A stretch of DNA of 64,000 nucleotides, from NCBI RefSeq assembly GCF_963921235.1, contig NC_086097.1:170316001-170380000 (forward strand), read 5' to 3'. The notes beneath the pieces were generated by a model. The model was not told the origin of the DNA. It did no database searches and saw only the letters and a program-made list of their open reading frames with translations. Shown here piece by piece: positions 1-59,194 of the stretch. The DNA is from Mobula hypostoma. Lineage: Eukaryota. The position numbers were made by a program, and so were the translations under genes. Positions within the stretch are counted from its first letter, which is position 1; each line of letters starts with the position of its first letter.

Positions 1-291
1 CCAGCAAAGGTGTCAGTGATAGTGCTATCATGTGGCACTTACACAGCAGAAACCTACTCACCAATGGAGGCATGAGAGACTGCAGAAGTTGGAATCCAGA
101 GCAACCAACATTGTGCAGGAGGAACTCAATAGGTGAGGAAAAAGGACAGTTGACGTTTTTAGGTCCAGACTCTTCATCTGGCTGAAATATAGTGGGGCTG
201 GAGTCAGTATTGCTTTCTCTCACATTTTAATACTGGCTATCTTCTCCACATCTTTCTGTCCAGATGAAGACTTTTGATCTGGAATGTTGAC

Positions 292-504
292 CAAGCAACA
301 CACACAAAATGCTGGAGGAACTCAGCAGACCAGGCAGCATCTATGGAAGAGAGTACAGTTGACGTTTCAGGCAGAGACCCTTCATCAGGACTGAAATGTC
401 GACTGTACTGTTTTCTATAGATGCTGCCTGGCCTGCTGAGTTCCTCCAGCATTTTGTGTCTGTGTGTTGCTCGGAATTCCAGCATCTGGAGATATTCTCT
501 TGTT
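292..504. mobile_element. Palindromic PLE-derived mini-element with 14-bp TSD
   Basis: Arms ~295-370 and ~391-470 are reverse complements; flanked by tctg(g/a)aatgttgac at 278-291 and 505-518. Confidence 0.8.
356..393 (-). ncRNA. Minimal type I hammerhead ribozyme motif in PLE pLTR (core intact)
   Basis: Minus strand reads CAGTC-CTGATGA-AGG gtctctg CCT-GAAAC-GTC-AACTG: CUGANGA box, helix II, GAAA, GUC site, helix I with one mismatch. Confidence 0.75.
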
Positions 505-699
505 TCTGAAATGTTGACTGTCCATTTCTCTCCACTGATGCTGCCTTACTTGCTGAGTTCCTTCAGCATCTTGTTGTCTGCACTTACTCACTGATACCCA
601 TTTGAGGTTTCACCAGGAACTCACAACAGCCTTAGTATAAATATAAACAAAAGAGCTGAATTCTAGAGTTGAGATGAGAGCAACTGCCCTCTTCACCAA

Positions 700-960
700 G
701 GTACCACTTCACTGGGTGTGTCGTCATGGAGTTCTGACTAAGTTAGTCAAAGGAAAAACTCTCCAGTGGCCAGAGTCATACCTCACATAAATGAAGATGG
801 GTATAGTTATTATCCCAGGCCCAGGACATCACTACATGGGTTCCTTAGTCAGTGTCCTCAGTCCAGCCATCCTCAATTGCTTCGTCAATAACTTCTGCTT
901 CATCAGATTGGAAGTGAGGATATTTACTGATAATAACATAACATTCAATTCCATTGCCAG
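700..960 (+). mobile_element. Old CR1/L2-like LINE RT fragment
   Basis: Degenerate RT segment (SVLSPAILNCFVNN...VRIFTDN). Confidence 0.55.
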
Positions 961-1384
961 CATGCTGGAGAGGTGTGGGATGATTTGTCAGCATATTGCC
1001 CTGGATTAGAACATATAAATTTAATGGAGAAGTTTGTTTTCCCTGGAGTGGAGGAGGCTGCTGGGTAAGGTGTATAAAATTTGAGGGGAAACTGAACATA
1101 GAACTTAGAACAGTATAGCACAGGAACAGGTCCTTTGGCCAATGATGTTGTGCTGAACTAATTAAACAAATAATTAAATGCCTACTCAACTAGTCCCTTC
1201 TGCCTGCGCAATGTCTTTATCCCTTCATTCTCTACACATTCATGTGCCACTGTAGGAGGCTCTTCAATGCTTCTGTTGTATTTGCCTCCACTACCACCAC
1301 TGGCAATGCCATCTGGGCATCTATCACTCTTTGTAAAAAGAAATGTGCCCTACATGTCTCCTTTGAACTTATTCAAATTTCAAA

Positions 1385-1745
1385 CTTATAACACCATCGA
1401 GGACATCTTCAGGAGGTGGTGTTTAAAGAAGGTGGCATCGATCATGAAGAACCCTCACCATGCAATGCATGCCCGCTTTTCATTATTAGCATCAGGGAGG
1501 AGGTACAGGAGCCTGAAGGTCCACACTTGATGTTTCAGGAGCAGCTTTTTTCCCCGCAGCTATCAGATTTTAGATTGGTCCATAACACTGCCCCACTATT
1601 TTGTTTTCTTTGCACTATTTATTTAGTTCTTATATATTTCTTAATGGAATGTTTGGTTATTTGTTTATGTATTGTATTGTACTGTTGCCACAAAACAACA
1701 AAGGTCACAATATAGGTCAGTGATATATAAACCTGACTCTGATTC
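1385..1745 (+). mobile_element. Rex1/Babar-like LINE 3' fragment inside an old minus-strand CR1 tail
   Basis: CLKKVASIMKNPHH..FSLLASGRRYRSLK matches the C-terminus of the 21640..22398 ORF; ends in aaacctgactctgatt. Confidence 0.7.
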
Positions 1746-2014
1746 CTCTCACCTTAAATGTATGTCCTCTGGTATTGATATCACAAACCTGGGAAAATGA
1801 TACTGGCTATGTACTCTGTCTATGCCTCTCATCGTCTTATAAACTTCTATCATGTCTCCCCTCAGTCTTCACCACTCCAGAGAAAACAACCCACGTTTGT
1901 CCAACTCCTCCTCATAGCACATGCCATCTAATCCAGAGAGCATTTGCCAGGAATGCTGCCTGGATTAAAGAGCATGTGCTATGAAGAATTGGAGAAACTC
2001 TTCAAAACTTCCAC

Positions 2015-2672
2015 ATCCTTTGCTGAGCACCTACGCTCTGTCCGCCAAAGAAAGCAGGATCTCCCAGTGGCCACACATTTTAATTCCACGTCCCATTCCC
2101 ATTCTGATATGTCTATCCATGGCCTCCTCTACAATAAAGATAAAGCCACATTCAGGTTGGAGGAACAACACCTTATATTCTGTCTGGGTAGCCTCCAACC
2201 TGATGGCATGAACACTGACTTCTTAAACTTCTGTTAATGCCCCACCTCCCCCTCGTACCCCATCCGTTATTTATTTATATACACACATTCTTTTTCTCTC
2301 TCTCCTTTTTGTCCCTCTGTCCCTTTCACTATACCCCTTGCCCATCCTCTGGGCTTTTCCCCCCCTCCTCCTTTTCCTTCTCCCTGGTCCTCCTGTCCCA
2401 TGATCCTCTCATATCCCTTTTGCCAATCAACTGTCCAGCTCTTGGCTCCATCCCTCCCCCTCCTGTCTTCTCCTATCATTTTGGATCTCCCCCTCCCCCT
2501 CCCACTTTCAAATCCCTTACTAGCTCTTCCTTCAGTTAGTCCTAACGAAGGGTCTCGGCCTGAAACGTCGACTGTACCTCTTCCTAGAGATGCTGCCTGG
2601 CCTGCTGCGTTCACCAGCAACTTTGATGTGTGTTACTTGAATTTCCAGCATCTGCAGAATTCCTCGTGTTTC
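2015..2672 (+). mobile_element. PLE 3' fragment: GIY-YIG C-terminus plus pLTR
   Basis: FAEHLRSVRQRKQDLPVATHFN...LEEQHLIFCLGSLQPDGMN nearly matches the 46934..47752 ORF; hammerhead motif at 2538-2573 with core mutated to CTAACGA. Confidence 0.9.
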
Positions 2673-2818: not shown

Positions 2819-5027
2819 TCATAAGACCATAAGACAAAGGAGCAGAAGTCAGCCATTCGGCCCATCGAGTCTGCTCTGCCATTTTATCATGAGCTGATCC
2901 ATTCTCCCATTTAGTCCCACTCCCCCGCCTTCTCACCATAACCTTTGATCCCCTGGCTACTCAGATACCTATCAAACTCTGCCTTAAATACACCTAATGA
3001 CTTGGCCTGCACTGCTGCCCGTAGTAACAAATTCCATAGATTCACCACCCTCTGGCTAAAAAAAATTTCTTCGCATTTCTGTTCTGAATGGGCGCCCTTC
3101 AATCCTTAAGTCATGCCGTCTCGTACTAGACTCCCCCATCATGGGAAACAACTTTGCCACATCCACTCTGTCCATGCCTTTCAACGTTCGAAATGTTTCT
3201 ATGAGGTCTCCCTTCATTCTTCTAAACTCCAAGGAATACAGTCCAAGAGCGGACAAACGTTCCTCATATATTAACCCTCTCATTCCCGGAATCATTCTAG
3301 TGAATCTTCGCTGTACCCTCTCCAACATCAGCACATCCTTTCTTAAATAAGGAGACTAAAACTGCCCACAGTCCTCCAAGTGAGGTCTCACCAGCGCCTT
3401 ATAGAGCCTCAACATCACATCCCTGTTCCTATACTCTATTCCTCTAGAAATGAATGCCAACATTGAATTCGCCTTCTTCACTACCATCTCAACCTGGAGC
3501 TTAACCTTAAGGATATCCTGTACGAGGACTCCCAAGTCCCGTTGCATCTCAGAACTTTGAATTCTTTCCCTATTTAAATAATAGTCTGCCCATTTATTTC
3601 TTCTGCCAAAGTGCATAACCATACACTTTCCAACATTGTATTTCATTTGCCACCTCTTTGCCCATTCTTCCAATCTATCCAAGTCTCTCTGCAGACTCTC
3701 CGTTTCCTCAGCACTACCGGCCCCTCCACCTATCTTCGTATCGTCAGCAAACTTAGCCACAAAGCCATCTATTCCATAATCCAAATCGTTGATGTACAAT
3801 GTAAAAAGAAGCGGCCCCAACACGGACCCCTGTGGAACAACACTGGTAACCGGCAGCCAAGCAGAATAGGATCCCTTTATTCCCACTCTCTGTTTCCTGC
3901 CAATCAGCCAACGCTCTATCCACGTATGTAACTTTCCCGTAATTTCATGGGCTCTTATCTTGTTTAGTAGCCTCATGTGTGGCACCTTGTCAAAGGCCTT
4001 CTGAAAATCCAAATATACAACATCCACTGCATCTTTCTTGTCTAGCCTGCTTATAATTTCCTCAAAAAATTGTAATAGGTTTGTCAGGCAGGATTTTCCT
4101 TTAAGGAATCCATGCTGAGTTCTGCCTATCTTGTCATATGCCTCCAGGTACTCTGTAACTTCATCCTTGACAATTGACTCCAACAACTTCCCAACCACCG
4201 ATGTCAAGCTAACAGGTCTGTAATTTCCTTTTTGCTTCCTTACCCCCTTCTTAAATAGTGGAGTCACATTTGCAATTTTCCAGTCCTTCGGAACCATGCC
4301 AGAATCTATCGACTTTTGAAAGATCATCGCTAATGCCTCTGCAATCTCCACAGCTACTTCCTTCAGAACACGAGGGTGCATTCCATCTGGTCTGGGAGAT
4401 TTATCTACCTTTAGGCTATTCAGCTTCCTGAGTACTTTCTCTGTTGTAATTGTGACTGCGTACACTTCTCTTCCTTGCCACCCTTGAGTGTCCGGTATAC
4501 TGCTGATGTCTTCCTCAGTGAAGACTGATGCAAAATACTCATTCAGTTCCTCCGCCATCTCCTTATCTCCCATTACAATTTCTCCAGCATCATTTTCTAT
4601 CGGTCCTATATCTACTCTCACCTGTCTTTTACTCTTTATATACTTGAAAAAGCTTTTAGTATCCTCTTTGATATTATTTGCTAGCTTCCTTTCATAGTTA
4701 ATCTTTTCCCTCTTAGTGACCTTCTTAGTTTCCTTTTGTAAGCTTTTAAAAACTTCCCAATCCTCTGTCTTCCCACTAATTTTTGCTTCCCTGTATGCCC
4801 TCTCCTTTGCTTTAACTTTAGCTTTGACTTCTCTTGTCAGCCATGGTTGCATCTTTTTTCCATTCGAAAATTTCTTCTTTTTTGGAATATACCTGTCTTG
4901 CACCTTCCTCACTTCTCGCATAAACTCCAGCCACTGCTGCTCTGCCGTCCTTTCTGCCAGTGTCTCTTTCCAGTCAACTTTGGCCAGTTCCTCTCTCATG
5001 CCACTGTAATTTCCTTTACTCCACTGA
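2819..5027 (-). mobile_element. 5'-truncated CR1 LINE
   Basis: ORF2 RT on the minus strand; 3' tail of short repeats (ataagacc ataagac). Confidence 0.95.
3356..4999 (-). pseudogene. CR1 ORF2 reverse transcriptase segment (547 aa open; frameshifted continuation 3056-3334)
   Basis: NYRPVSLTS, QHGF, YLDFQKAFDKVPH, VPQGSVLGP and KFADD motifs; no endonuclease domain. Confidence 0.92.
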
Positions 5028-6339
5028 ATCTAGTTGTGTTACCATCCATCGACTCTCACCATCAACATCCTAAGTGTCACCATTGATTGCGGAAGCTAAC
5101 TGGCTCAGTCACAGAAGCTTTAAACAAACGTCCAAGGCTGAGTATCCTGCAGTGAGTTAATCACCTCCTGACACCCTAAAGTCTTATCACCATCTGCATG
5201 GCAAAAGTTGTGAGTGATGGGTAAGTTATAGATATTGACATTATTGCCACATGTATTGAGTACCAGACTCAAGGGCAGCTTCCATCCTGATGTTATCAGA
5301 GTCTTGAATAGACCGCTTGTACATTAAAAGTTGAATTCTTAATCTCCCAGTTTATCTTCTTGTGGTTGTTGTACTAGATTTATCTACCTGCACTGCACTC
5401 TCTTACTCTATCATGTCCTGCCTTCTGATTTTCTTTTGCTCAATTTGATATAATTATTTCCGGCATGATTTATCTGGATTGTGTGCAAAGCAAAAACTTT
5501 TCTTGGTACATACGACAATAAAAATAAACCAGTCCAATTTCAAAGGGAGTGAAATGCACTGTAAGGTACAGTATCAAATTCATGAAGGAACACAATAGGA
5601 ATGCTACACGTCGGGAATGCAAATGCTCCTTGTCCAAAATTGTTGAACTCCGCATCCTAAGAGAAGTGCATCTCTATCTATTTTCCATTCCACTGAAAGA
5701 TCATTGATCTGAAATGTTAACTCCACTTCACTCTCTGAAGGCCTGTTGAGTGTCTGCATCGCTTCTTTGCTCTACCTGAAAGTAAATGATTATCTCAGTG
5801 GTGTTTCACTGTTGGTGCTCATCTCCTACATTGTAGGATCAACTGCATTTCACTGACTGTGGGGAGCATTATCAATCCAAGCCCCTTTTATTAACCTCTC
5901 CAGCTTCTTTGGTTGTGGACATCAGCCCAGAAATTTAACTCTCAAGACATTGACCTTTGGTGTACATGTAAAGAATATTTTGTAACTGAACTTCTCTCCT
6001 GTCTGAAACTTAATCATATATTTGCAGAACCCTTGGTGGCCTAATTGGACACTATAAATTGTCTCCAGTCCCTCAGGAGGCAAGCAGAAGCTGGAGGAAG
6101 GTGATGGGAATCCATGATCCCACGAACACTACCTTGCTATTCCTCTTCTGTACTATTACTTATTCTTTATTGTATTTTTATTTTTTGTAGTATACTGCTA
6201 CCACAAAACAGCAAATTTCACAGCATGTATCAGTGATATTAAACTTGATTTTGAGATAGTGTGAATTCAGAAGGCTGAAGGGTTCCAAGTCTCCATGACT
6301 GAACACAGAACAAGCACTGTGTCCATGCTGTTTATCAGA

Positions 6340-9430: not shown

Positions 9431-9454
9431 GGGATGGTCCCTCCTCCCAGCTGC

Positions 9455-19105: not shown

Positions 19106-19144
19106 TGGTTATTTGATTCCAATCAACTTGTTTATTGATCATTA

Positions 19145-19210
19145 CAGTACTGTGCAAAAGTCTTGCGCATCCTAGCTATATATATGTGCCTAAGACTTTT
19201 GTACAGTACT
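19145..19210. mobile_element. ~66-bp Tc1/mariner-type MITE
   Basis: TA|CAGTACTGTGCAAAAGTCTT...AAGACTTTTGTACAGTACT inverted termini. Confidence 0.75.
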
Positions 19211-20558: not shown

Positions 20559-21424
20559 TATTCCCCAGGACTATTGAAAATGAAAATAACAGGAATATTA
20601 ACACACCACTGGATGCTAGGTCTAAATTATAGATTATAACGAAACCATGATTTTCAATGTTAGGCATTTTGGATGCATTCTGGGAGTGAGCGGGGATCTG
20701 AAAGTCACTTTCTAAATGCAATTCATTTTAATTAAAGTTATTGAGCTTTTTTGAGACAATTACATTTGATGGACACCCTCCATCCAGTTTTTGCAATGTT
20801 ATATCCATATATCAGTGCTGTTTGGTCTCTAAGATGGAATTGCTGGTGCAAAGAGCAGTGTTAGGTAGTTAATGGCCACAAAGTCATTGAAAAGCTGCTC
20901 ATGCACATTATGCAGAATTAATTCATTTACTAAATGTGACCTTCAGTGAGAGAGAATGAGGGTGCAGAAAGCGGTTCAATGACATACTATAAAATTGTAC
21001 CAAAGGCTAATTAGCTTTTGATGGACAAGTCATACCAGCTTACAATGCACCTTGACATTATCAAGGAGATGCTCACTTATTTTCCTTGCCAGCAAAGTTA
21101 TTCAAAAAGTTGCAGCAATCTGCTGGAGGAATTCACTGGCTCAAGCAGAAGCTGTTGGGGGAAAGGAACTGTTGGCATTTTGCATTGAAACCCTGCTTCA
21201 GGATATCAGACTGTTGCTCTGGGATCCAGCATCTGCATTCTCTTGTATCTCTATTCAAAAGTTTGCTTTGTTTTCTAGATCACAGCATGTCTTTGTATTT
21301 GGTTGTACAACATTAAGAGGTATACTGTATAACAGTACATTTAATAGCTCAAGCGTTATGATTTCCATGATATAATCATCCATGATAAGCCAAAGTCCAT
21401 ATTAAAAAACATAATTCGAAACTA

Positions 21425-32132: not shown

Positions 32133-32210
32133 GACCACATCAGGCATCATCTATGAATTTTGATCTGAAATACTTAATCTGCTTCTCTTTCCACAGATGG
32201 TACCAGACTT

Positions 32211-32398
32211 CATAGACACAAAAATTTCTGCAGATGCAATGCACTCAACATGCTGGAGAAACTAAGCATCTATGGAGTGAAAGAAATAGTTGTTTCCATG
32301 TAGCCCTGATTAAGGATCTTGCTTCGAAAAGTCGATGGTTAATTTCTCTCCATAGACGCTACCTGACTTATTGAGTTCCTCCAGTATTTTGTTTGTGT
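32211..32398. mobile_element. Palindromic PLE mini-element with 13-bp TSD inside an older pLTR remnant
   Basis: Inverted pLTR arms; tggtacca(g/t)actt at 32198-32210 and 32399-32411. Confidence 0.7.
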
Positions 32399-32434
32399 TG
32401 GTACCATACTTACTAAGATTTTCTGTATTATTCT

Positions 32435-38245: not shown

Positions 38246-38365
38246 AGGTTTTCTGGTTTAAGATAGTACTGGTGAAGAACAGTGACAACTTTCTGGCAGC
38301 AAACGCACCCTATTAACTACTTTATTGCTCACATTTTTTCTCAAAAACGGTCACTGCAATCAATA

Positions 38366-39537
38366 ACATACACAATATGTTGGAGGAACTCACCAGATCA
38401 GGCAGCATCTATGTAAATGAATAAACCGTCAATGTTTCAGGCCGAGATCCTTCTTCAGGAGTTGAAAGGAAGGGGAAGACGCCAGAATAAAAAGCTGGGC
38501 GAGGGGAAGGAGGATAGCTAGAAGGTGATAAGTGAAGTCAGGTGGGTAGGAAAGGTAAAGGGCATGAGAGGAAAGTGGACCATAGCTGAAAAAGAAGGAG
38601 GAGAGGACCCCAGGGAGGTGATAGGCAGTTGAAAAGATTAAGAGGCCGGAGTGGGGAACAGAAGAAGAGGGTAGAGAAAGCGACGTAACTTTTAAAATTT
38701 TTTTAAAAACTGGAAACAGAAATCGATATTCATGCCATCAGGTTGGAGGCTACCCAGCTGGAATATAAGGTGTTGCTCCTCCACCCTGAAGATGGCCTCA
38801 TCATGGCACAAGAGGAGGTCATGGGCTGACATGCCAGTGAAGGAATGGGAGTAGGAATTAAAGTGCTTGGCCACTGGGAAACTCTGCTTTTGTGGGAGAG
38901 GGAGAAAGAGAGAGAGATATCATTTTGGAGGTAGCAGAAGTTATGTTGGATGTGGTAGGTAAGGCCAAGAGGAATTCAATCACTGTTAAGGTGGCAGGAA
39001 GCAGGTGGCCAAACATTTTATTTCTAACTTCTATTCCCATTCAGACATGTTGATCCATAGACTCCTCTAGTGCCAAGATGAGGCCACCCTCAGGGTGGAG
39101 GAGCAACATCTTCTATTCCGTCTGTGTAGCCTCCAACCGATGGTATGGATGTTGATTTCTCCTTCTGGTTAAAAAAATCCCTCCCCCTCCTCTCTTCTAT
39201 TCCCCACTCTGGCCTCTTACCCCTTCTCAACTGCGTATCACCTCCTCCTTCCCTTCCTCCTATGGTCCATGCTCCTCTCCTATCAGATTCCTCCCTCTCC
39301 AGCCCTTTTCCTCTTCCACCCACCTGGCTTCACATATCACCTTTTCTCAATCCTCCTTCCCCTCCCCCCATCTTGTTATTCTGCATTTTCTCCCTTCCTT
39401 TGCAGTCTTGATAAAGAGTCTCAGCCCAAAATGTTGACTGTTTATTCATTTCCATTGATGCGACCTGACCTGCTGAATTTGTTGGGGGCGTGTTGTTTTG
39501 CATTTCCAGCATCTGCGGAATCTCCTGTGGTTATGAT
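38366..39537. mobile_element. Large fold-back PLE insertion (two inverted 3' ends) with 15-bp TSD
   Basis: Minus arm ~38370-38880 (VEEQHLIFQLGSLQPDGMN), plus arm ~39005-39530; tcactg(ca/ta)(a/g)tcaata at 38351-38365 and 39538-39552. Confidence 0.85.
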
Positions 39538-40098
39538 TCACTGTAGTCAATAGCCTGTAACTTCCCTTTTGGAGCTGAGCTTTTGAACCACCTGTACAAT
39601 CTGGTATTTCACTTTGTTAAGTTACTTGGTTAGTTATTCTAAAGGTACTTTGACAATTACACGGATTGGAAAGGTTTAGGGTAGGTGCTACCTATTATAG
39701 TGTCTCTTCTTCAGCTGAAAAAAACCATAGTGGACAGTGTGATCGTGGGATCGTCGCAACAGGAGGAACGAGGGGCTTGGGAGAGCGAGCGCTGAGTGCT
39801 GGGAAGCAGCTCAGGTGAGTGTGCTTTAAAAAGGAGCGTGGAGGGCGACTGAGAGGTTAAACAGAGTGTTGATTAGTTGATCAGAGGGAGTGAGTACTTG
39901 AGATAATTGGCAGGGACAAATAAAAGGAGGGGTAACTGAAGAGGAGCGGCCAGTGTGTGAGTGGCTCGGAGTAGGAGTGGAGCTTTGAGACTTTGGCTCG
40001 AGAAGCTTCGGCGAGCAGAGGCTGAGGACGAGCCTGCTCCCAGTGAGGTAAGGCCGGGTAAATTCCTTTAATGAATTTAATTAACTTAGGAGTAGGTA

Positions 40099-41040: not shown

Positions 41041-41042
41041 AT

Positions 41043-43960
41043 ATGCAGGGGGAGGGGAACCAGAGTGTTAGAGCAGATAGTGAGGTGGAGGAGGATAAAA
41101 GTCATGCGAGGACTGCATGTATAGACAGAAATCAAAGGTTTGTATGTGATAGAAATGTTCTCAGGTGCATCTATTTCAATGCAAGGAGTATTGTAGGTAA
41201 GGCAGATGAACTTAGGGCATTGATTGGCACGTGGGATTATGACATTATTCCTATTAGTGAGACTTGGTTGCAGGAGGGGTAGGACTGACAGCTTAATGTT
41301 CTGGGGTTCTGTTGTTTCAGACGTGATAGAGGGGGAGGGATGAAAGGGGGAGGAGTGGCATTAATATTCAGCGGAAATATCACAGCTGTGTGTAGACAGG
41401 ACAGCCCGGAGGGCTTGTCTACAAAGGCCATATAGGTGGAGCTGAGGAATGGGAAAGGTGTGACCACACTAATAAGGTTGTATTATAGACTGCCCAATAG
41501 TCAGAGAGAATTGGAGGAGCAAATCTGTAGAGAGATAGCAGACCGATGTAAGAAACAGAAAGTTGTAATAGTAGGGGATTTTAACTTTCCACATATTGAT
41601 TGGGACTCCCACACTGTGAAAGGGCTAGATGGCTTGGAGTTCGTCAAATGTGTTCAGGAAAGTTCTCTAAATCAATATATAGAGGTACCTATGAGAGAGG
41701 ATGCAATACTTGATCTCCTATTAGGGAACCAGACAAGTCAGGTGACAGAAGTATGTGTAGGTGAACATTTTGGCTCCAGTGATCATAATGTCATTAGTTT
41801 CAAGTTAATTATGGATAAGGATAGGTCTGGTCCTCGAGTTGAGGTTCCAAATTGGAGAAGGGCCAATTTTGTGGAAATGAGAAAGGACCTAGGAAAAGTG
41901 GATTGGGATAAGTTGTTTTCTGGCAAGGATGTGTTCAGTATGTGGAAGGCCTTCAAAGGTGAAATTTTGAGAGTGCGGAGTTTGCATGTTCCTGCCAGGA
42001 TTAAAGGCAAAGTTAACAGGCATAGGGAACCATGATTTTCAAGGGATATTGGCGATCTGGTTAAGAAAAAGAGAGAGGTGTATAGCAGGTACAGGCAACA
42101 AAGAACAAATGAGGTACTTGAAGAGTTTAGAAAATGTAAGAAAATACTAAAGAAGGAAATCAGGAAGGCAAAAAGAAGACATGAGGTTGCTCTGGCAGAT
42201 AATGTGAAGGTAAACCTGAAGGGTTTCTACAAGTACATTAAGAGTAAAAGGATAGTAAGGGACAAAATTGGTCCCCTAGAAGATCAGAGTGGTTGTCTAT
42301 GTGTGGAGCCTCACGAGATGGGGGAGATCTTAAACATTCTTTTTGCATCAGTATTTACTCAGGAAACTGGCATGACGTATATGGAAGGAAGGGAAAAAAA
42401 CAGTAGTGTCATGGACCATATGGAGATTAAAGAGGAGGAAGTGCTTGCTGCCTTACAGCAAATAAAGGTAGCTAAATCCTCCGGGCCTGACATGATATTT
42501 CCTCAGACCTTGAGAGAGACTATTGTAGAAATTGTGGGGGCCCTGGCAGAAATATTTAAAATGTCCTTAGCCACGGGTGCGGTGCCGGAGGATTGGTGTG
42601 TAGCTCATGTTGTTCCGTTGTTTAAAAAGGGCTCCAAAAGTAAACCGGGTAATTACAGACCGGTGAGCCTGATATCAGTAGTAGGTAAATTATTGGAAGG
42701 TGTTCTGAGAGATTGGGTATACAAGTATTTGGACAACCAAGGGCAGATTAAGGATAGTCAGCATGGCTTTGTGTGTGGTAGATCATGTTTAACGAAACTT
42801 GTAGAGTTTTTCGAGGAGGTTACCAAGAAAGTAGATGAAGGAAAGGCTGTGGATGTTGTCTACATGGAGTTTAGTAAGGCCTTCGACAAGGTCCCACATG
42901 GGAGGTTAGTTCAGAAGGTTCAGACATTAGGTATCCATGGAGAGGTTGTAAACTGGATTTGAAATTGGCTGTGTGGGAGAAGACAGAGTGTTAATGGATG
43001 ATTGTTTCTCAGACTGGAGGCCTGTGACTAGTGGTGTGCCTCAGGGATCTGTGCTGGGACCATTGTTGTTTGTTGTCTATATCAATGATCTAGATGATTA
43101 TATGGTAAATTCGATCAGCAAATTTTCTGATGACACTAAGATTGGAGGCATTGTGGACAGCGAGGAAGGCTTTCAAAGCTTGCAGAGGAATCTGGACCAA
43201 CAGGAAAAACGGGCCAGAAAATGGCAGATGGAATTTAATACAGAAAGTGTGAGGTGTTGCATTTTGGAAGGACAAATCAAGGTAGGACATACACAGTAAA
43301 TGGTAGGGCACTGAGAAGTGCAGAGGAACAAAAGGATCTGGGAGTTCAGATACATTATTCCCTGAAAGTGGCATCACAGCTAGACAAGGTTGTAAGGCTT
43401 TTGGCATCCTGGAATTCATAAATCAAAGTATTAAGTATAGGAGTTGGGATGTTATGGTGAGGTTGTACAAGACATTGGTGAGGCCAAATTTGGAGTATTG
43501 TGTGCAGTTCTGGTCACCTAACTATAGGAAGGATATCAGTAAGATTGAAAGAGTGCAGAGAAGACTTACTAGGATGTTGCCGGGTCTTCAGGAGTTGAGT
43601 TACAGGGAACGATTGAACAGGTTAGGACTTTATTCCTTGGAGCGTAGAAGAATGAGGGGGGATTTGATATAGGTTTACACAATTATGAGGGGTATAGACA
43701 GAGTAAATGTGAGTGGGCTCTTTCCACTTAGATTAGGAGAGACAAATACGAGAGGACATGGCTTTAGGGTGAAAGGGGAAATGTTTAGGGGGAATATTAG
43801 GTGGAACTTCTTCACTCAGAGAGTGGTGGGAGTGTGGAACGAGCTGCCATCTGACGTGGTAAATGCGGGCTCACTCTTAAGTTTTAAGAATAAATTGGAT
43901 AGGTGCATGGATGGGAGAGGTCTGGAGGGTTATGGACTGGGTGCAGGTCAATGGGACTAG
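41043..43960 (+). pseudogene. CR1 ORF2p: APE endonuclease plus RT; disrupted
   Basis: YFNARSI, SETWL, GDFNFP, SDHN, NYRPVSL, GVPQGSVLGP and KFSDD across several ORF pieces. Confidence 0.92.
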
Positions 43961-46490: not shown

Positions 46491-46601
46491 CTTTAAACTT
46501 CACTGAATTAAAGTAGGCACAAGAAACTGTAGTTTCTGGAAACATACATCAAAGTTGCTGGTGAACGCAGCAGGCCAAGCAGCATCTATAGGAAGAGGCG
46601 C

Positions 46602-46637
46602 AGTCGAAGTTTCAGGCCGAGACCCTTCGTCAGGACT
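46602..46637 (-). ncRNA. Minimal hammerhead ribozyme motif in pLTR
   Basis: AGTC-CTGACGA-AGG gtctcgg CCT-GAAAC-TTC-GACT; core intact, ACGT palindrome changed to ACTT. Confidence 0.7.
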
Positions 46638-46933
46638 AACTGAAGGAAGAGTGAGTAAGGGATTTGAAAGCTGGAGGGGGAGGGGGAGATGCAAAATGAT
46701 AGGAGAAGACAGGAGGGGGAGGGATAGAGCCGAGAGCTGGACAGGTGATAGGCAAAAGGGGATACGAGAGGATCATGGGACAGGAGGTCCGGGAAGAAAG
46801 ACAAGGGGTGGGGGGTGACCCAGAGGATGGGCAAGAGGTATATTCAGAGGGACAGAGGGAGAAAAAGGAGAGTGAGAGAAAGAATGTGTGCATAAAAATG
46901 AGTAACAGATGGGGTACGAGGGGGAGGTGGGGC

Positions 46934-47679
46934 CTAGCGGAAGTTAGAGAAGTCAATGTTCATGCCATCAGGTTGGAGGCTACCCAGACGGAATATAAGG
47001 TGTTGTTCCTCCAACCTGAGTGTGGCTTCATCTTTACAGTAGAGGAGGCCGTGGATAGACATGTCAGAATGGGAATGGGATGTGGAATTAAAATGTGTGG
47101 CCACTGGGAGATCCTGCTTTCTCTGGCAGACAGAGCGTAGATGTTCAGCAAAGCGGTCTCCCAGTCTGCGTCGGGTCTCACCAATATATAAAAGGCCACA
47201 TCGGGAGCACCGGACGCAGTATATCACCCCAGTCGACTCACAGGTGAAGTGATGCCTCACCTGGAAGGACTGTTTGGGGCCCTGAATGGTGGTAAGGGAG
47301 GAAGTGTAAGGGCATGTGTAGCACTTGTTCCGCTTACACGGATAAGTGCCAGGAGGGAGATCAGTGGGGAGGGATGGGGGGGACGAATGGACAAGGGAGT
47401 TGTGTAGGGAGCGATCCCTGCGGAATGCAGAGAGATGGGGGGAGGGAAAGATGTGCTTAGTGGTGGGATCCCGTTGGAGGTGGCGGAAGTTACGGAGAAT
47501 AATATGTTGGACCCGGAGGCTGGTGGGGTGGTAGGTGAGGACCAGGGGAACCCTATTCCTAGTGGGGTGGTGGGAGGATGGAGTGAGAGCAGATGTACGT
47601 GAAATAGGGGAGATGCGTTTAAGAGCAGAGTTGATAGTGGAGGAAGGGAAGCCCCTTTCTTTAAAAAATGAAGACATCT
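46934..47679 (-). pseudogene. PLE ORF C-terminus: linker Cys motif plus GIY-YIG endonuclease (open, 5'-truncated)
   Basis: PCKRNKCYTC; VIYCVRCSRCGLLYIGETRRRLGDRFAEH; VATHFN; EQHLI. Confidence 0.9.
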
Positions 47680-49999
47680 TTTCTGGAAGCTGGAGCAACA
47701 GGCAAAAATGCTGGGTGGGCAACATTTGTGGAAGCAGAGGAACGGTCACCATTTTGACTAAGGTCTTGTCCTAATGCAGGGTCTTAACTTAACTTGTCCA
47801 CTACTCCTCTGCCTCCATGGATGCTGCCTACACCCAGATGGTTTTTCCAGCAGCTTGAATATCATCTGCTCTTTGCTTGCCAAATCTGCAAGCTTAACAT
47901 TTTGTTGTCAATTTCTGTTCCTTTTGACCACACTTTCAAGCATGGTACCATCTACAAATAGGAACATTTTAACCTCACTTATTTTACCATTTTGAAAAGG
48001 AACCTTCAAGAATATTCCATATGACATCGGGAATTATCCTGTACCAGTCAGACATGGAATGGGATGAGACTATTCCTTTCAATGGGAATTGTAGCCTGTG
48101 GAATAGTAATGTAAGTAATTTCTTAAAAATAAATTAGCTGAAGTAAATGATTTGTGCTTAAATGAGTTTTGACTTTACTTCTAAAATTTTCTAAACTTTT
48201 TTAACAGTTTAAAAAATTAATTCTTCTGTATGTACAATATACATAATGAATATGCTTCAGGTAGAATGTTTTATTTGTAATGAAGTAATTCTGAGATAAA
48301 AATGATTCTCCAATTAAATTAATTATCTTTGAATACTTGACACGTTTAAAAATAGTTTGTAGCCATGGACACAAGGCTGTCCCGAGACTGTGTTGTTGTT
48401 AAGTCTTGTTATAAATATCACTAAAGATTTGCCCTGCTCCAGCCACATAGACATTATGATCAAGCAAGCACACTGGCATCTCGACTTCCTCAGAAAGTGA
48501 AGGAAACTCTGCAAGTCTCTTTTAAGAATGCAATAAAGTGCACATATTATTTGGATATTGATATGGAAATTGCTCTGCCCAAGACTGCAAGAAATTTCAG
48601 AGTTGTGAACACAGCAAGTTCATTAGCCTCCCTTCTGTGGAGTGCGTCTACACTGCCTGCTGCCTCAGTAAAGCAGCCAATGTAATCAAGGATACCTCTA
48701 ACCCTGTTATCGTCTCCTTCCCTTTCCCATTAAGCAGAAGCTGAAAAACTTGAGAACATGTCACCAGGCTCAAGGATCGCTTCTACTCTGCCATTATAAG
48801 TCTTTGGAATAGAAGATTATCTCTCCATTTTGCAACTTACTTCATCATAACACTTACACCGTATTATATACCTGCACTAGACTTAATCTACAACTGTAAC
48901 GATATATTCTGTTATTGTTTTCCTTTTGTATCAGCTTGAAATACTAATATGAACTGCCTGGGTGGCATGCAGACAAAGGCTTTTTACTATATTGTGCTAC
49001 ATGTGACAACAATAAACTAAAACCAATACAAGTAAGGGCTGGCAAGACTGTTTCTCTGCATCTGGTCCAGGTGTGTGCAGGCAGGTGAGACCTGTGGTCC
49101 CAGGAAGATCTGGAGCAATAGCAAAATGCTAGGAGTGCATCTTCAAAGGTATGGAGATTGTTGAGGCTGTGTGGCATAGAGTGCAACTTGGGAGAAGAGA
49201 ATGAAGGATTGAGCAAGAGACAATGAAAAGGAGTATTCTTCAGGAATAATGCTTTATGTGTAACAAAATAATTCCTTGAACATTTCAACCAAGTTATGTA
49301 TGTTTCATATACAAAAGGACACATTAGACACTGAATCCAATCAATCTGGAGACAGGACAAAGAGACTAACAAGATCTGAGTCAAATTTGTTTGAACCAAA
49401 TGAATTTCAAATAAAATGTTATTTAGTTGAATGATTATTCAAGGTCTGGGAATGCCAGCCGTTAAACACTTGGCTGCCTGAGGGTAGTAGACATTGGAAG
49501 TCAAGTTTCTTAACAAGTCTGTTAGTAAATCTTCAGAGCTGATTCCCCTGGAGACTTGGCAGCTACGAAAACAAAGAGGGAAAGTTCAAACTTATTCTGG
49601 TCTAGTCTGCATTCTTTACTGTTAATATGCACTTTTGGAGTATAAATGAATAAACAGTTCTAGCCCAAACCTCTAAGTGTTAAAAAGCAAATTCAAAGTG
49701 TATAACTTCACTAGTACCTCCAAACTGGAAAGAAAAATGCAGGTAAAGGGGAGAGAGAGCAACTTGTAACAGTCAAGGCTTTCTATGGTTCTGAGATGTG
49801 AGGAAGTGCTCTAGCGCCAGAGATGGGCTTCATTGTAATGATCCATCAGGCTGACAACTGAATTTACAGAGAGTGGTTGGTGCCTGGAGTGGGTTATCAG
49901 GGGTAGTAGCAGAAGCAGATATCAAATTTGGCACAATATTGTTGTCCAAATGGCTGGTCCAGTGCTGTTCTATTGTATATTCTAAGAGTATTCATGTTT

Positions 50000-53539: not shown

Positions 53540-56500
53540 AGGAGGCTGAACAGATTGATAAAAGGATGAAGGTAAAACTAAACATGAAGGGAAAAAGGCA
53601 GTTAGAGCAGAGCACCCCTGTGGCTATTCCCCTCAAAAACAAGTATACCGCTTTGGATACTTTTGTGGAGGATGACCTCCCGGAAGAATGCCACAGCGAC
53701 TGGGTTACAGGCACTGAGCATGGGTCCATGGTGCAGAAGGGAAAGAGAGAAGAAGGGAATGGTAATGATAGGGGACTCAATAGTGAGGGGAACAGGCAGG
53801 AGATTCTGTGGATGTGAACAGGACACCCAAATGGTATGTTGCCTCCCAGGTGCCAGGATCAGGGATGTCTCAGATCATGTCCACAACATTTTGAAGAGGG
53901 AGGGGGAGCAGCCAGATGTCTTGGTACATATTGGTACCAATGACATAGGAAGGAAAAGCAATGGGGTCCTGAAAAGAAAATTTAGAGAGCTAGGTAGAAA
54001 GCTGGGAAGCAGGATCTCCTCGGTAGTAATTTCTGGATTGTAGCCTGTGCCATGTGCCAGTGAAGGTAGAAACAGGACAATTTGGCAGATCAATGAGTGG
54101 CTGAGAAGCTGGTGCAGGGGGCAGGGCTTCAGGTTCTTGATTAATTGGGATCTCTTCTGGGGGAGGTATGACCTGTTCAAAAGTGACAGGTTGCACCTGA
54201 ACCTGAGGGAGACCAATATTCTCGTGCGCAGGTTTGTTAGAGCTGTTGGGGAGGGTTGGCAGAGGGGTGGGAACCAGAGTGATGGGACTCGGGATAGGAC
54301 AAATGGTAAAAAAGTAAAAATAGCGTGCTGTCAGGTTGTCAGGAAGGGCAGGCAGGTAATGGAACTTTGTTGCAGCCAACAGGCTATCAAATCATTAGGG
54401 ATGCAGAATCCAGAAAGGAGAGTAACTATGGTACTCAAGGTGTTGTATCTAAATGTGCGTAGTATAAGAAATAAGGTGGATGATCTTGTTGCAATTTTAC
54501 AGTTTGCCAGGTATGATGTTGTGGCCATCACTGAATCATGGCTGAAGAATGGTTGTAGTTGGGAGCTGAATGTCCAAAGTTACATGTTATATCGGAGAGA
54601 TAGGAAGACAGGCAGAGGGAGTGGTGTGGCTCTACTGGTAAAGAATGGCATCAAATCACTGGAAAGATGCAACATAGGATCAGAGGCTGTTGAATCCTTG
54701 TGGGTTGAGTTAAGAAACTGCAAGGGTAAAAGGACATTGGTGGCAGTTATATACAGGCCTCCCAACAGTGGCTGGGAGGTGGACCACAGGTTACAACAGT
54801 AAATAGAAAAGGCAAGTCAAAAGGGCAATGTTATGGTAGTCATAGGAGATTTTAACATGCAGGTCAATTGTGTAAATCAGGTTGGTAATGGACCTCAAGA
54901 GAGTTAGTTGTTGAAAGAGATAGCTCTTTAGGGCAGTTTGTTGTTGAGCCTACTGGGGGATCAGCTATACTGGATAGGGTGCTATGTAATGAACCAGAGG
55001 CAATTAGGGAGGTTAAAGTAAAAGAACCCTTAGAAACCAGTGATCACAATATGATTGTTTTCAAATTGAAATTTGATAGGGAGAAAGCAAAGTCTGATTA
55101 GCAGTATTTCAGTGAAGTAAGGGAAATTATAGTGGTATGAGAGGGGAGTTGGCCAAAGTAAATTGGAAGGAGCTGCTGGCAGGGATGTCAGCAGAGTAGC
55201 AATGGCGTGTGTTTCTGGGGAAAATGAGGAAGGTACAGGACATGTGTATTCCAAAAATAAAGAAATAATCAAATGGTAAAATAGTACAATCATGGCTGAC
55301 AAGGGAGGTCAAAAACATTATAAAAAAGCAAAAGGAAGGGCATACAACAAAGCAAAAATTTGTGGGAAGATAGAGGATGGGGAAGTTTTTGAAAACCTAC
55401 AGAGAGCAATTAAAAAACTCATTAGAAGGGAAAAGATGAAATATGAAAGCAAGCTAGCAAATAATATCAAAGTGGGTAGTAAAAGTACTTTTCAAGTTTG
55501 TTAAAATAAAAGAGAGATGAGAGTGGATATAGGACCACTAGAAAATGATGCAGGAGAAGTAATAACGGGGGACAAGGAGATGGCTGATGAGCTAAATGAG
55601 CTGTGGAAGACTCGAGCAGTAGGCCTGATGTTGTGTGTGTAGGAGGAGAAGTAGGTGCACCTACTGTTCCAAGAAAGAAGGTACTCAAAAACTGAAAGAC
55701 CTAAAGGTACATAAGTCAGCTGGACCAGAGGAACTACACCCTAAGTTTCTGAAAGAAGTAGCGGTAAAGATTATGGTGGCATTATAAATGATCCTTCAAA
55801 AATCATTGGACTCTGGCATGGTGCCAGAGGACTGAAAAAATTGCAAATGTTACTCCACTCTTTAAGAAAGGAGGAAGGCAGCAGAAAGGAAATTATAGAC
55901 CAGTTAGCCTGACCTCAGTAGTTGGGAAAATGTTGAAGTCAGTTATTAAGGATGAGGTGATGGAGTACTTGGTGACACAGGACAAAATAGTTCAAAGTCA
56001 GCATGGTTTCCTTCAGGGAAAATCCTGCCTGACAAACCTGTTGGAATTCTTTGAGGAGATTACAAGTAGGATAGATAAAGGGATTGTAGTGGATGTTGTA
56101 TATTTAGATTTTCAGAAGGGCTTTGACAAGGTGCTACACATGAGGCTGCTTACAAAGTAAAGAACCCATGGTACTACAGGAAAGTTACTAACATGGTTAG
56201 AGCATTGGCGGATTGGTTAGAGGCAGCGAGTGGAAAAAAAGGATCCTTTTTTGGTTGGCTACCAGTGACTAGTGGTGTTCCGCAGGGGTTGGTGTTGGGA
56301 CCACTTCTTTTTATGTTGTATATAAATGATTTAGATGATGGAATAGATGGCTTTGTTCCCAAGTTTAAAGATGATATGAATGTTGGTGGAGAGGCAGGTA
56401 GTGTTGAGGAAACAGATAGGATGCAGAAGGACTTAGATTAGGAGAATGGGCAAGAAAGTAGCAAATGAAATACAATGTTGGAAAATGCATGGTCATGCAT

Positions 56501-57297
56501 TTTGGTAGTGGAAATAAATGTGCGGACTATTTTCTAAACGGGGAGAAAATACAGGAATCTGAGTTGCAGAGGGACTTGGGAGTCCTTGTGCAGAACACCC
56601 TGAAGGTTAACTTGCAGGTTGAGTCGGTGGTGAGGGAGGCAAATGCCATGTTAGAATTCATTTCTAGAGGTTTAGAATACAAGAGCAAGGATGTGATACT
56701 GAGGCTTTATAAGGCACTGGTGAGGCCTCACCTTGAGTATTGTGTACAGTTTTGGGCTCCACATCTTATAAAAGATGTGCTGGCATTGGAGAGGGTCCAG
56801 AGGAGGTTCACAAGGCTGATTCCAGGAATAAAAGGGTTATCATTCAAGGAACGTTTGGCTCTGGGTCTGTACTCGCCGGAATTCAGAAGGATGAGGGGGA
56901 GTCCCATTGAAACCTTTTGAATGTTGGAAGGCCTAGATAGAGTAGATGTGGAAAGGATGTTTCCCATGGTGGGAGAGTCTAGGACAAGAAGGCACAGCCT
57001 CAGGATAGAGGGGCGCCCTTTCAAAACAAATGCGAGAAATTTCTTTAGTCAAAGGGTGGTGAATTTGTGGAATTTGTTGCCACATGCAGCTGTGGAGGCC
57101 AGGTGGAAAGGTGTATTTAAGGCAGAGATTGATAGGTTTTTGATTGGACATAGCATCAAAGGTTTTGAAGAGAAGTCTGGGAACTGGGGTTGAGGAGGAA
57201 ATAAAAAAAAGGATCAGCCATGATTGAATGGCAAAGCAGACTTGATGGGCCAGACGGCCTAATTGTGCTCCTATGTCTTATGGTCTATAGTCTTATG
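53540..57297 (+). mobile_element. Long degraded CR1 LINE (ORF1 esterase plus ORF2)
   Basis: IGDSIVRG, VHIGTND, YLNVRSIRNK, IYRPPN, GVPQGLVLGP and LYKALVRPHLEYC; tail tcttatggtc. Confidence 0.93.
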
Positions 57298-57364
57298 GAA
57301 AAAGGCATAAATAAAGCACACATACCATAAAGTGATGAATTTAGTGAAGCGTGTCAACTGATCC

Positions 57365-57735
57365 AGGAATGGAAAATCAACTGTTGAAGGAACTCAGCAG
57401 ATCAGGCAGCATCTGTGTAGCAAAGAAAAGGTTAGTGTTACAGTGTCAGGACCCTACATAAGAACTGATGTATAAAGAGGTAGGGCAGAGGCTTGCAGGC
57501 TGGTAGGCTATGTCTCCCACCTCTCTCTCACGTCTTTTTACCAGCTATTGCCTTCTAGCCTTGGCTCCCTTTCACTTTATACTAGCTGCCTTTCCTCTAT
57601 ACTTCTGGCCCAGATTCAATATCCCAATCTGAAATATTTACCATGCCTTTTCCTCCAGAGTTGCTGCCTGACCTACTGTGTTCCTCCAGCAGTTTGATTC
57701 TGTTCTCCACACTCCAGCATCTGCAGTCTTTCGTG
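57365..57735. mobile_element. Old fold-back PLE mini-element
   Basis: gaaggaactcagcagatcaggcagc ... gctgcctgacctactgtgttcctccagcag in inverted orientation. Confidence 0.65.
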
Positions 57736-57896
57736 CCTCTATTATAACAGGAACCCAGCGGAAAGGAAGCACTGAGGTCAAACAACAGTATCATCTTATT
57801 AAATGTCAGAGCAGGCTCAAGAGGCGTGCCAGATCTTGCTTCTATTTCTAATAAAGAACTTTCAAATGTGGATAAAAAGACAATTAGGAAGAGAAA

Positions 57897-58555
57897 CGCA
57901 AACAGGAATTCTGCAGATGCTGGAAATTCAAGCAACACACATAAAAGTTGCTGGTGAACGCAGCAGGCCAGGCAGCATCTGTAGGAAGAGGTGCAGTCGA
58001 CGTTTCAGGCCGAGACCCTTTGTCAGGACTAACTGAAGGAAGAGTGAGTAAGGGATTTGAAAGTTGGAGGGGGAGGGGGAGATCCAAAATGATAGGAGAA
58101 GACAGGAGGGGGAGGGATGGAGCCAAGAGCTGGACAGGTGATAGGCAAAAGGGGATACGAGAGGATCATGGGACAGGAGGTCTGGGAAGAAAGACACGGG
58201 GGGGGGACCCAGAGGTCTCTCACTCTCCTTTTTCTCCCTCTGTCCCTCTGAATATACCTCTTGCCCATCCTCTGGGTCCCCCCGCCCCCTTGTCTTTCTT
58301 CCCGGACCTCCTGTCCCATGATCCTCTCGTATCCCCTTTTGCCTATCACCTGTCCAGCTCTTGGCTCCATCCCTCCCCCTCCTGTCTTCTCCTATCATTT
58401 TGGATCTCCCCCTCCCCCTCCAACTTTCAAATCCCTTACTCACTCTTCCTTCAGTTAGTCCTGACAAAGGGTCTCGGCCTGAAACGTCGACTGCACCTCT
58501 TCCTACAGATGCTGCCTGGCCTGCTGCATTCACCAGCAACTTTGATGTGTGTTGC
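57897..58555. mobile_element. Young fold-back PLE pLTR insertion (near-perfect ~285-bp arms) with 12-bp TSD
   Basis: Arms ~57931-58215 and ~58270-58555; taggaagagaaa at 57885-57896 and 58556-58567. Confidence 0.93.
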
Positions 58556-59194
58556 TAGGAAGAGAAAATAAACATCAAGGCATTTCATATACACATCAGT
58601 AACAAAGCAAGGTTCAAGGTCAGGCAGGATTAGACCCATTAAGCAATGGCAGGGATAATGAATACTTATCAGTTTTCACACCTTGATCTTTCCCTCAAAG
58701 CTGACATTTATTTCCCATCCCTGATGTCCTTGAGAAATTAAATTACGGACTTCAGTGAAAATGGCATGTTTTTACATGGAGGCTGCAGTGTGCTGTTAAT
58801 TACAGTACCTTCATTTTCTGGGAAATTTCTATTGTACCATAATGTTGGATATCCTTCACCACAACGATTGAGAAGGCAGCTCCCCTTCTCAAGGGCAATT
58901 AGGGATGTTTATTAATTGCTGTGTTTGCTAATGACATCTTATTGTATAACCCTCTGGAGAGTATGAGACAGCACTTTTCAAAGTTCAAAGTTCAAATACA
59001 AGTTTACTGCGACATGCACAAGTGCATGTTGGAGCAGGTGCATAGAGAAACTTACGGTAGCATCACAGGCAGAGAGCATCAATATACACAACGTCTGCAA
59101 GAAAATTGTAAATTATGCAAAATTTTACAAGAAAGAGTACAATTAACACAATTAGAACGTAAAATGTCCATTATGGTGCAAAGTGGTCAACGGA

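What the first reader, a model, noticed from the sequence alone, without database searches (positions are those of the whole stretch)
278..58567. Recurring fold-back, hammerhead-carrying PLE insertions with 12-15 bp TSDs and a one-sided tail
Seen: four insertions of very different size and age (292-504, 32211-32398, 38366-39537, 57897-58555) share one architecture. Each has two inverted copies of the PLE 3' end and a direct duplication of 14, 13, 15 or 12 bp. One arm carries an extra ~30-40 nt tail (ttccagcatctgcagaattcctgttt-like) while the other stops at about gtgtgttgc. Established: PLEs often form inverted pLTRs and carry minimal hammerhead motifs. Inference: each fold-back arose in a single integration event by a reproducible priming or template-switch route. 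The ~200-bp versions may be a mobile non-autonomous, ribozyme-bearing hairpin family that looks like a MITE.
Basis: partly seen in the sequence, partly recalled or inferred. Interest (0 to 1): 0.72.

Follow-up and report, generated by a model that had tools for sequence, protein, structure and literature searches.

The report
Fold-back Penelope insertions with ordered tails
The hairpin-shaped insertions are real but are the already described truncated footprints of a Penelope-like jumping gene in a ray-like fish; what is added is that the extra tail almost always sits on the shorter arm, which hints at the order in which the two ends are copied.

Summary
All four insertions are confirmed: head-to-head 3' ends of a Neptune-type Penelope-like element (PLE), one target-site duplication (14, 13, 15, 12 bp) and one tail. 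'Hammerhead-carrying' is only partly true: 2 of 8 arms keep an intact core. The layout (inverted pLTR, one TSD, one-sided tail) is in print (PMC3846280, PMC8557442), the tail is explained by two RT start sites (PMC11167929), and the scan met the same pattern on other DNA. A MITE reading fails: TSD length varies and the ends are asymmetric. The short forms share a junction zone at a 5-6-nt self-complementary spot in the ribozyme, which recurs at other loci, but more than 1,300 other joints exist: a hot spot is likelier than a mini-family. Added here: four more fold-backs in the window and six in metagenome relatives; all 14 have exactly one tail, and in 12 of 14 (11 of 11 with a TSD) the tail is on the more truncated arm, twice as a tail-only arm. 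This fits ordered double priming of one RNA, testable in the existing in vitro system. No empty site was seen.

The parts
278..291 (+). Insert A, left TSD copy (right copy 505-518), 14 bp, 1 mismatch; lies inside the hammerhead region of an older pLTR
292..396 (-). A, tail-less arm; holds the complete minimal hammerhead (357-392), the longer arm at its 5' side
391..504 (+). A, tailed arm; starts inside the hammerhead; 391-396 is a 6-nt microhomology shared by both arms
505..518 (+). A, right TSD copy
62..209 (-). Older fold-back that hosts A: tailed, shorter arm (TSD 52-61/582-591, 10 bp, 1 mismatch)
210..581 (+). Older fold-back: tail-less, longer arm, interrupted by A
2018..2669 (+). E: young single 5'-truncated PLE end with tail; no TSD found
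21110..21251 (.). M21: further fold-back; minus arm tail-less with degenerate hammerhead, plus arm (from ~21211) is little more than the tail; TSD core 21099-21107/21252-21260
32198..32210 (+). Insert B, left TSD copy (right copy 32399-32411), 13 bp, 1 mismatch; inside an older pLTR (weak, E 0.005)
32211..32293 (-). B, tailed arm, degraded, starts near the hammerhead GAAA box
32294..32398 (+). B, tail-less arm with whole but mutated hammerhead
38351..38365 (+). Insert C, left TSD copy (right copy 39538-39552), 15 bp, 2 mismatches
38366..39002 (-). C, tail-less arm; reaches into the endonuclease ORF, with an internal deletion; 544 nt upstream of the hammerhead core
39003..39537 (+). C, tailed arm; 405 nt upstream of the hammerhead core
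46542..47679 (-). F: young single 5'-truncated copy without tail, 9-bp TSD (46533-46541/47680-47688), inserted in the tail of an older fold-back
46934..47671 (-). C-terminal part of the PLE ORF: CX4CX2C linker, GIY-YIG endonuclease; identifies the parent element
47680..47868 (.). Older fold-back hosting F (its tail continues at ~46508-46541): tailed minus arm starts inside the hammerhead, tail-less plus arm holds it whole; no TSD found
57380..57742 (.). Old head-to-head pair P/Q: tail on the plus arm, which is the LONGER arm (exception to the rule); no TSD found
57885..57896 (+). Insert D, left TSD copy (right copy 58556-58567), 12 bp, identical
57897..58215 (-). D, tailed arm (tail 57897-57930); 189 nt upstream of the hammerhead core; core G8-to-A
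58216..58555 (+). D, tail-less arm; 245 nt upstream of the core; blunt junction to the left arm; core G8-to-A

Best explanation
These are dead-on-arrival insertions of a very abundant Neptune-type, endonuclease-bearing Penelope-like retrotransposon of a cartilaginous fish. SHOWN: each is one head-to-head pair of 5'-truncated 3' ends inside one 9-15-bp TSD, with one tail. FROM THE LITERATURE: a PLE protein cuts and extends both target strands, is predicted to be a dimer and starts reverse transcription at two adjacent sites that bracket the tail. INFERRED (about 0.55 on its own): the two 3' ends of a staggered cut prime the same RNA in order. The first primer takes the inner site and copies a long, tail-less arm. 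The tail is then the only free RNA, so the second primer takes the outer site, copies the tail, meets the first RNA:cDNA hybrid and must displace it; it therefore ends earlier, sometimes right after the tail. The two cDNA ends are joined bluntly or through a few complementary bases and the gaps are filled, which gives the TSD. The ~200-bp forms are extreme truncations whose junction falls at a 5-6-nt self-complementary spot around the hammerhead, so they look alike without being one mobile family. The hammerhead is carried along and is mostly broken.
For: TSDs and one-sided tails at A-D. GIY-YIG ORF with CX4CX2C linker upstream of the same end, relatives carry RT plus GIY-YIG. Tail on the more truncated arm in 12 of 14 (two-sided p 0.013), and in 11 of 11 that have a TSD (A, B, C, D, the pair 62-581, M21; L021, L025, L045, L056, L073). 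Tail-only inverted arms with a TSD: M21 and L045 (13/13-bp TSD, arm stops a few bases past the inner site). In one metagenome family inverted upstream arms are tailed in 9 of 11, ORF-bearing arms in 3 of 13 (Fisher p 0.012). D's arms share 3 private states. Self-complementary 5-6-mers flank the hammerhead in three subfamilies. Both-strand extension, two start sites and dimer model: PMC11167929.
Against: Two head-to-head pairs have the tail on the longer arm (window P/Q; L063 = L066), though neither shows a TSD. In vitro, top and bottom strands showed no difference in start site, which does not by itself give coupling. Strand displacement by a PLE RT on its own cDNA is assumed, not shown. Arm boundaries of old copies were set by eye or by a purine/pyrimidine change point; the tail call for the pair at 47680-47868 is weak (p 0.03); TSDs of L056 and L073 are weak (p 0.021). 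The arms of B and C cannot be shown to be sisters (C arms 79% alike, a third copy 80-81%). A's junction register recurs at other loci, as a mini-family would predict. No empty site was seen.
Confidence: 0.58

Rival explanations
1. Same single PLE insertion event, other chemistry: the inverted arm comes from self-priming (snap-back, or priming on an antisense template) or from two separate RNAs held by a dimer, and the endonuclease trims one end so that only one tail is left.
For: Proposed in print: self-priming on an antisense template (PMC3846280 Discussion) and EN-mediated resolution of the intermediate (PMC8557442). A's junction is what a cDNA snap-back at a 6-nt complement would give. Snap-back also gives identical arms, as in D.
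Against: In a plain snap-back the copied, shorter arm cannot hold more than its template, yet it is the shorter arm that has the tail in 11 of 11 TSD-bounded cases; tail-only arms (M21, L045) have almost nothing to copy from. D's junction is blunt with a 58-nt spacer, not a palindrome. Two independent RNAs would give no-tail and two-tail forms, 0 of 14 here.
Confidence: 0.22
2. The ~200-bp hairpins are a mobile non-autonomous family: a master hairpin with a fixed junction is transcribed and re-inserted by the PLE protein (or moved like a MITE).
For: 15 of 32 listed paralogous contig pieces from four runs bridge A's junction with 8-26 differences, 3 of them without gaps (table 8). Two very short junctions sit on contigs about ten or more times deeper than the single-copy flanks (325-405 in X1; 329-393 in X9 and X10). 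Non-autonomous PLE derivatives exist (retrozymes, 10.64898/2026.07.22.740005; Chlamys, PMC8557442).
Against: 1,344 different joints were recorded and those shown have 1-11 contigs per run. Short copies in the window differ in age and subfamily (A and B arms 63-73% alike, the pair at 47680-47868 51-62%) and their junctions differ by several bases. The junction motif exists in the parent pLTR. TSD length is not fixed and the ends are asymmetric, against a transposase. Re-copying a hairpin RNA would not be expected to restore both precise ends (inference).
Confidence: 0.12
3. The short forms began as long fold-backs and lost their interior later by microhomology-mediated deletion between the two copies of the 6-mer, which are direct repeats on the chromosome.
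For: Gives the same junction as seen in A; the youngest insert, D, is longer (659 bp) than most old ones (143-360 bp). Microhomology deletions in PLE copies are reported (PMC3846280).
Against: C is old (19% between arms) and still 1,172 bp. Deletion does not explain one tail per insert, nor its place on the shorter arm, nor tail-only arms.
Confidence: 0.06
4. The two arms are independent insertions that landed next to each other, and the TSDs are chance.
For: pLTR pieces are dense (28 profile hits in 64 kb) and 3 of 7 TSD-defined inserts sit in older pLTRs, so neighbours do occur; P/Q and L063 may be such cases.
Against: TSD p 0.0003 for each of A-D; restored target for A; shared private states in D; no tail-to-tail pair among the window's nine pairs.
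Confidence: 0.02

Closest known systems
Complex insertions of canonical EN+ Penelope-like elements (Pen2a_Av and Pen2 of Adineta vaga, PMC3846280; general scheme in PMC8557442 Fig. 2 legend)
   Same: Adjacent inverted, 5'-truncated pLTR copy; head-to-head arrangement; one 9-10-bp TSD around the whole; 30-40-nt tail on one end only.
   Different: Here most inserts are only pLTR ends (140-1,200 bp), at very high density; TSDs 9-15 bp. The passages read say the tail is at 'one' or 'either' end; none says it is tied to the more truncated arm (figures not seen).
PAc, Poseidon of Anolis carolinensis, in vitro (PMC11167929)
   Same: Two adjacent RT start sites bracket the tail; both target strands are cut and extended; hammerhead cleavage is not needed (fits D, whose cores are broken).
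   Different: Other PLE clade (no CX2-5CxxC linker); the paper does not explain inverted copies and saw no strand difference in start site.
Minimal hammerheads of metazoan PLEs (PMC4209133)
   Same: Type I minimal motif in the pLTR with an extra base after position 9 and a palindromic 15.2/16.2 pair; pairs of motifs 100-700 bp apart on opposite strands were already noted in Schistosoma.
   Different: Only 2 of 8 arms here keep the core; activity untested.
L1 twin priming (recalled, no call)
   Same: Two primers from one staggered cut copy one RNA; cDNAs joined by microhomology; one TSD.
   Different: In L1 the second primer anneals upstream of the first cDNA and the two pieces barely overlap; here the second start lies downstream (tail) and the arms overlap fully, forming a fold-back.
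Non-LTR retrozymes (10.64898/2026.07.22.740005) and MITEs (PMC8969392)
   Same: Short, non-coding, pLTR-related (retrozymes) or hairpin-like (MITEs).
   Different: Retrozymes are head-to-tail tandem units with a hammerhead in each; MITEs have symmetric terminal repeats and depend on a transposase. Neither fits.

Membership tests
Canonical EN+ PLE (Neptune/Nematis type) | C-terminal GIY-YIG endonuclease | tested here: met
   ORF 46934-47671, Pfam GIY-YIG E 0.00045, just under the curated cut-off; same 3' end as inserts C and D
Canonical EN+ PLE (Neptune/Nematis type) | RT upstream of the endonuclease in one ORF | tested here: inconclusive
   No RT left in the window's copies; relatives at 45-65% identity carry RVT_1 then GIY-YIG
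Canonical EN+ PLE (Neptune/Nematis type) | CX2-5CxxC linker and CCHH motif | tested here: met
   C112/C117/C120 linker and C155, C158, H177, H193 in the alignment; definition from PMC8557442. Neptune versus Nematis not resolved by a tree
Canonical EN+ PLE (Neptune/Nematis type) | Inverted 5'-truncated copy, optional tail, variable TSD | tested here: met
Canonical EN+ PLE (Neptune/Nematis type) | Partial-tandem full-length copy with direct pLTRs | not testable with these tools
   No genome held; none in the window
Minimal type I hammerhead | CUGANGA, GAAA, UH core with stems I and II | tested here: inconclusive
   Core intact in A left, C left and F; broken or cut off in the other 15 of 18 arms checked; not found by Rfam
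Minimal type I hammerhead | Self-cleavage | not testable with these tools
   Needs an assay
MITE | Symmetric terminal inverted repeats reaching both ends | tested here: not met
   One end overhangs by a ~34-nt tail in all of A-D
MITE | TSD of fixed length or sequence (recalled) | tested here: not met
   9-15 bp, unrelated sequences
MITE or other non-autonomous family | Many copies with one shared internal junction | tested here: inconclusive
   A's register recurs in at least 3 gap-free paralogous pieces, but 1,344 other joints were recorded; no count of bridging contigs is given
Non-LTR retrozyme | Head-to-tail tandem units each with a hammerhead | tested here: not met
   All pairs are head-to-head; definition

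The most novel reading that the evidence does not exclude
Penelope-like elements integrate by an ordered double priming of one RNA: inner start site first (long, tail-less arm), outer start site second (short, tailed arm that runs into the first cDNA). This would explain inverted pLTRs, the one-sided tail and tail-only ends in one step, in fish and invertebrate elements alike. A bolder add-on, about 0.12 on its own, is that some of the shortest hairpins were then re-mobilised as a mini-family.
Probability: 0.42. Interest if true: 0.66.

Novelty: new member of a known kind. Interest (0 to 1): 0.42.

Why it matters
How PLEs form inverted repeats is named as an open question (PMC8557442), and the only in vitro paper leaves it open (PMC11167929). 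A rule that ties the tail to the shorter arm turns thousands of dead genomic copies into a record of the order of priming and gives a direct test in an existing assay. For annotation, it warns that the very abundant hairpins of shark and ray genomes are PLE remnants, not MITEs or miRNA precursors (Rfam gives below-threshold miRNA hits on D).

Tried and rejected
No genome was held, so no genome-wide table. A degenerate pLTR pattern found 0 matches in metagenome and viral contigs. Rfam found no hammerhead; its miRNA hits are below gathering scores and reflect the hairpin only. Single-arm folding gave no unusual stability, z -0.5 to +1.9 in 8 arms. Empty-site test for A: not reached; a related organism (code C) already has A's right end (record 32), the fourth run barely covers the flanks, and no joint skipping A is among the 15 joints shown. 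Depth is not a copy number and was not used as one. No RNA holder listed. No TSD for E, P/Q or the pair at 47680-47868, nor for L063/L066. Dropped before the counts: a possible ninth window pair around B (partner arm E 4.5); of 79 metagenome loci, 22 had under 300 bases downstream; L003 and L075 (arm at contig edge), L004 (no tail seen on either arm or in 4-5 other copies), L018 and L038 (other repeats), L039 and L049 (complex or cut), L066 (same locus as L063). If L004 belongs to a tailed family it would be a no-tail case against strict one-sidedness. Literature searches for the tail/arm rule or for twin priming in PLEs found no statement of it; Arkhipova 2006 and Evgen'ev and Arkhipova 2005 were not read, figures are not visible, and no supplements were opened, so it may be drawn there.
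Full report
OBSERVATION. The four inserts are at the stated places. Each is bounded by a direct duplication that ends and starts exactly at the given coordinates: A 14 bp with 1 mismatch, B 13 with 1, C 15 with 2, D 12 with none; each has p=0.0003 against 3,000 random pairs of flanks. Each insert is two copies of one repeat end facing outwards. Arm identity falls from 273/277 in D to 70/76 in A, 31/37 in B and 363/450 in C, in step with the TSD mismatches. One arm of each scores as tailed and the other does not. The tail is a common optional extension in these genomes: contigs from four public runs laid on A leave A's tail-less end with a loose sequence whose consensus is the tail, in 976-2,450 contigs per place in the window's own species (table 7). 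One qualification: by the minimal-hammerhead descriptor of PMC4209133 (parts 1-2 of 4 read) only A left and C left keep the core; A right and B left start inside it; B right, C right and both D arms carry core changes. Rfam reports no hammerhead.

PARENT ELEMENT. The same end lies downstream of an ORF fragment at 46934-47671 with a GIY-YIG domain. Its nearest proteins are from rays and sharks (76-61%), then coral and echinoderms; longer relatives carry RT before the GIY-YIG domain. The CX4CX2C linker places it with Neptune/Nematis rather than Penelope/Poseidon by the definitions in PMC8557442 (passages). The 3' ends point outwards, so the pairs are head-to-head. The family is very abundant: 28 profile hits in the window against 0-2 in five shuffles, and 180,243 contigs laid in the own-species run (not a copy number).

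SINGLE EVENT. A interrupts an older pLTR: removing A and one TSD copy gives a continuous match of 60.4 bits against 50.0 for the right part alone; B does the same more weakly (E 0.005). D's arms share 3 states that the sister copies E and F lack and no site conflicts. For B and C the arms cannot be shown to be sisters. An empty site was not seen: a related organism already has A (record 32).

WHAT IS KNOWN. [quoted passage not shown] PMC8557442 (passages and one section) gives it as general and calls the origin of inverted structures open. PMC4209133 noted hammerhead pairs 100-700 bp apart on opposite strands. PMC11167929 (parts 1-2 of 4) shows two RT start sites that bracket the tail, cutting and extension of both strands, a predicted dimer, and no need for ribozyme cleavage. 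Earlier notes of this scan reached the same reading in two other genomes and elsewhere in this one (unchecked notes). The architecture is therefore not new.

THE MINI-FAMILY IDEA. In A, B and the old pair at 47680-47868 the tail-less arm holds the whole hammerhead and the tailed arm starts inside it. In A both arms share a 6-nt overlap, and a 5-6-nt self-complement flanks the hammerhead in three subfamilies. Of 32 contig pieces listed out of 476,670, 15 are paralogues that bridge A's junction by 31 or more letters on each side, 3 of them without gaps; the listing favours long pieces and some may be one locus seen in two species. Two still shorter junctions sit on contigs about ten or more times deeper than single-copy flanks. 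Against a single family: 1,344 joints in all, those shown with 1-11 contigs per run; short copies in the window only 51-73% alike with junctions a few bases apart; variable TSDs; asymmetric ends. I read this as a junction hot spot (about 0.7 among explanations of the short forms), with a re-mobilised mini-family not excluded. MITE membership fails on two tested features.

WHAT THIS FOLLOW-UP ADDS. The window holds four more scorable head-to-head pairs: 62-581 (host of A; 10-bp TSD), 21110-21251 (TSD; the second arm is hardly more than the tail), 47680-47868 (host of F) and 57380-57742. All 8 have exactly one tail. The tailed arm is the more truncated one in 7 of 8, and in 6 of 6 with a TSD; the exception, 57380-57742, has no TSD. 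As an outside test, 79 metagenome loci encoding relatives of the endonuclease were fetched (host not determined). In 20 of the 57 with enough downstream DNA a hammerhead pattern follows the ORF within about 80-150 bases. One family shows two end points about 55-60 nt apart, each in about half of 27-28 copies. Six distinct head-to-head pairs could be scored at both ends: all have one tail; in L021, L025, L045, L056 and L073 it is on the short inverted arm and a TSD is present (p 0.001-0.021 for four of them; 13/13 for L045); in L063 it is on the ORF-bearing arm and no TSD is found. In that family 9 of 11 inverted upstream arms but 3 of 13 ORF-bearing arms are tailed (Fisher p 0.012). Overall: one tail in 14 of 14, tail on the shorter arm in 12 of 14 (two-sided p 0.013), 11 of 11 among TSD-bounded inserts. 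Rows dropped are listed under Tried and rejected; L004, with no tail seen on either arm, could count against strictness. Six literature searches found no statement of this polarity, but figures, supplements and two key older papers were not seen.

MECHANISM. Shown: geometry, TSDs, tail polarity. Taken from the in vitro paper: two start sites and extension of both strands. Inferred: both primers use one RNA in order. The first starts at the inner site and runs far; only the tail is left single-stranded, so the second starts at the outer site, meets the hybrid and stops early, at the limit just past the inner site (M21, L045). The cDNA ends join bluntly (D) or by microhomology (A, C), and fill-in gives the TSD. 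When only one primer extends, a simple tailed (E) or tail-less (F) copy results. Plain snap-back cannot put extra sequence on the copied arm, and two independent RNAs would give zero- and two-tail forms; both remain possible with an added trimming step.

VERDICT. Real, a known kind of PLE insertion in a new host family; the MITE-like reading is unlikely. Interest 0.42, carried by the tail/arm rule, which rests on 14 hand-scored cases and makes an open mechanistic question testable.

Noticed in passing
window 278-518, 32198-32411, 46533-47688: 3 of 7 TSD-defined PLE inserts (A, B, F) lie inside older pLTR copies, which cover 2.4% of the window (binomial p 0.0005; 0.011 if the target fraction is tripled, post hoc). 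F sits in an old tail about where its own tail would begin. Suggests a preference for pLTR-like targets.
   Followed up: partly
window 57897-58555: Both arms of the youngest fold-back carry the same G8-to-A change in the hammerhead core, absent from sister copies E and F; fits a ribozyme-dead template that still moved, or an early shared change.
   Followed up: partly
joints 325-405 and 329-393 on window 130-730: Two very short fold-back junctions lie on contigs about ten or more times deeper than single-copy flanks, one of them in two of four runs only; possible small amplified families or passengers of another repeat.
   Followed up: no
window 38905-39002: C's left arm jumps over about 300 bases of the endonuclease ORF (internal deletion or template jump).
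   Followed up: no
window 17927-19175: About 1.2-kb GC-rich minisatellite that gives long open frames on the minus strand.
   Followed up: no
window 3356-5029, 40210-43672, 53606-57200: CR1/L2-type LINE fragments with RT, AP endonuclease and an esterase-like first ORF (label from the translations, recalled).
   Followed up: no
window 21640-23498: Minus-strand RT fragments of another LINE type (Rex/Babar-like, label recalled).
   Followed up: no
window 62895-63999: Further degraded PLE ORF end on the plus strand, about 72% alike to F, running off the window.
   Followed up: partly
L033:4208-4322 and L037:1450-1512: Metagenome loci with a tailed arm downstream of the ORF in reverse orientation, and a detached tail-only piece: arrangements outside the simple model.
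   Followed up: no
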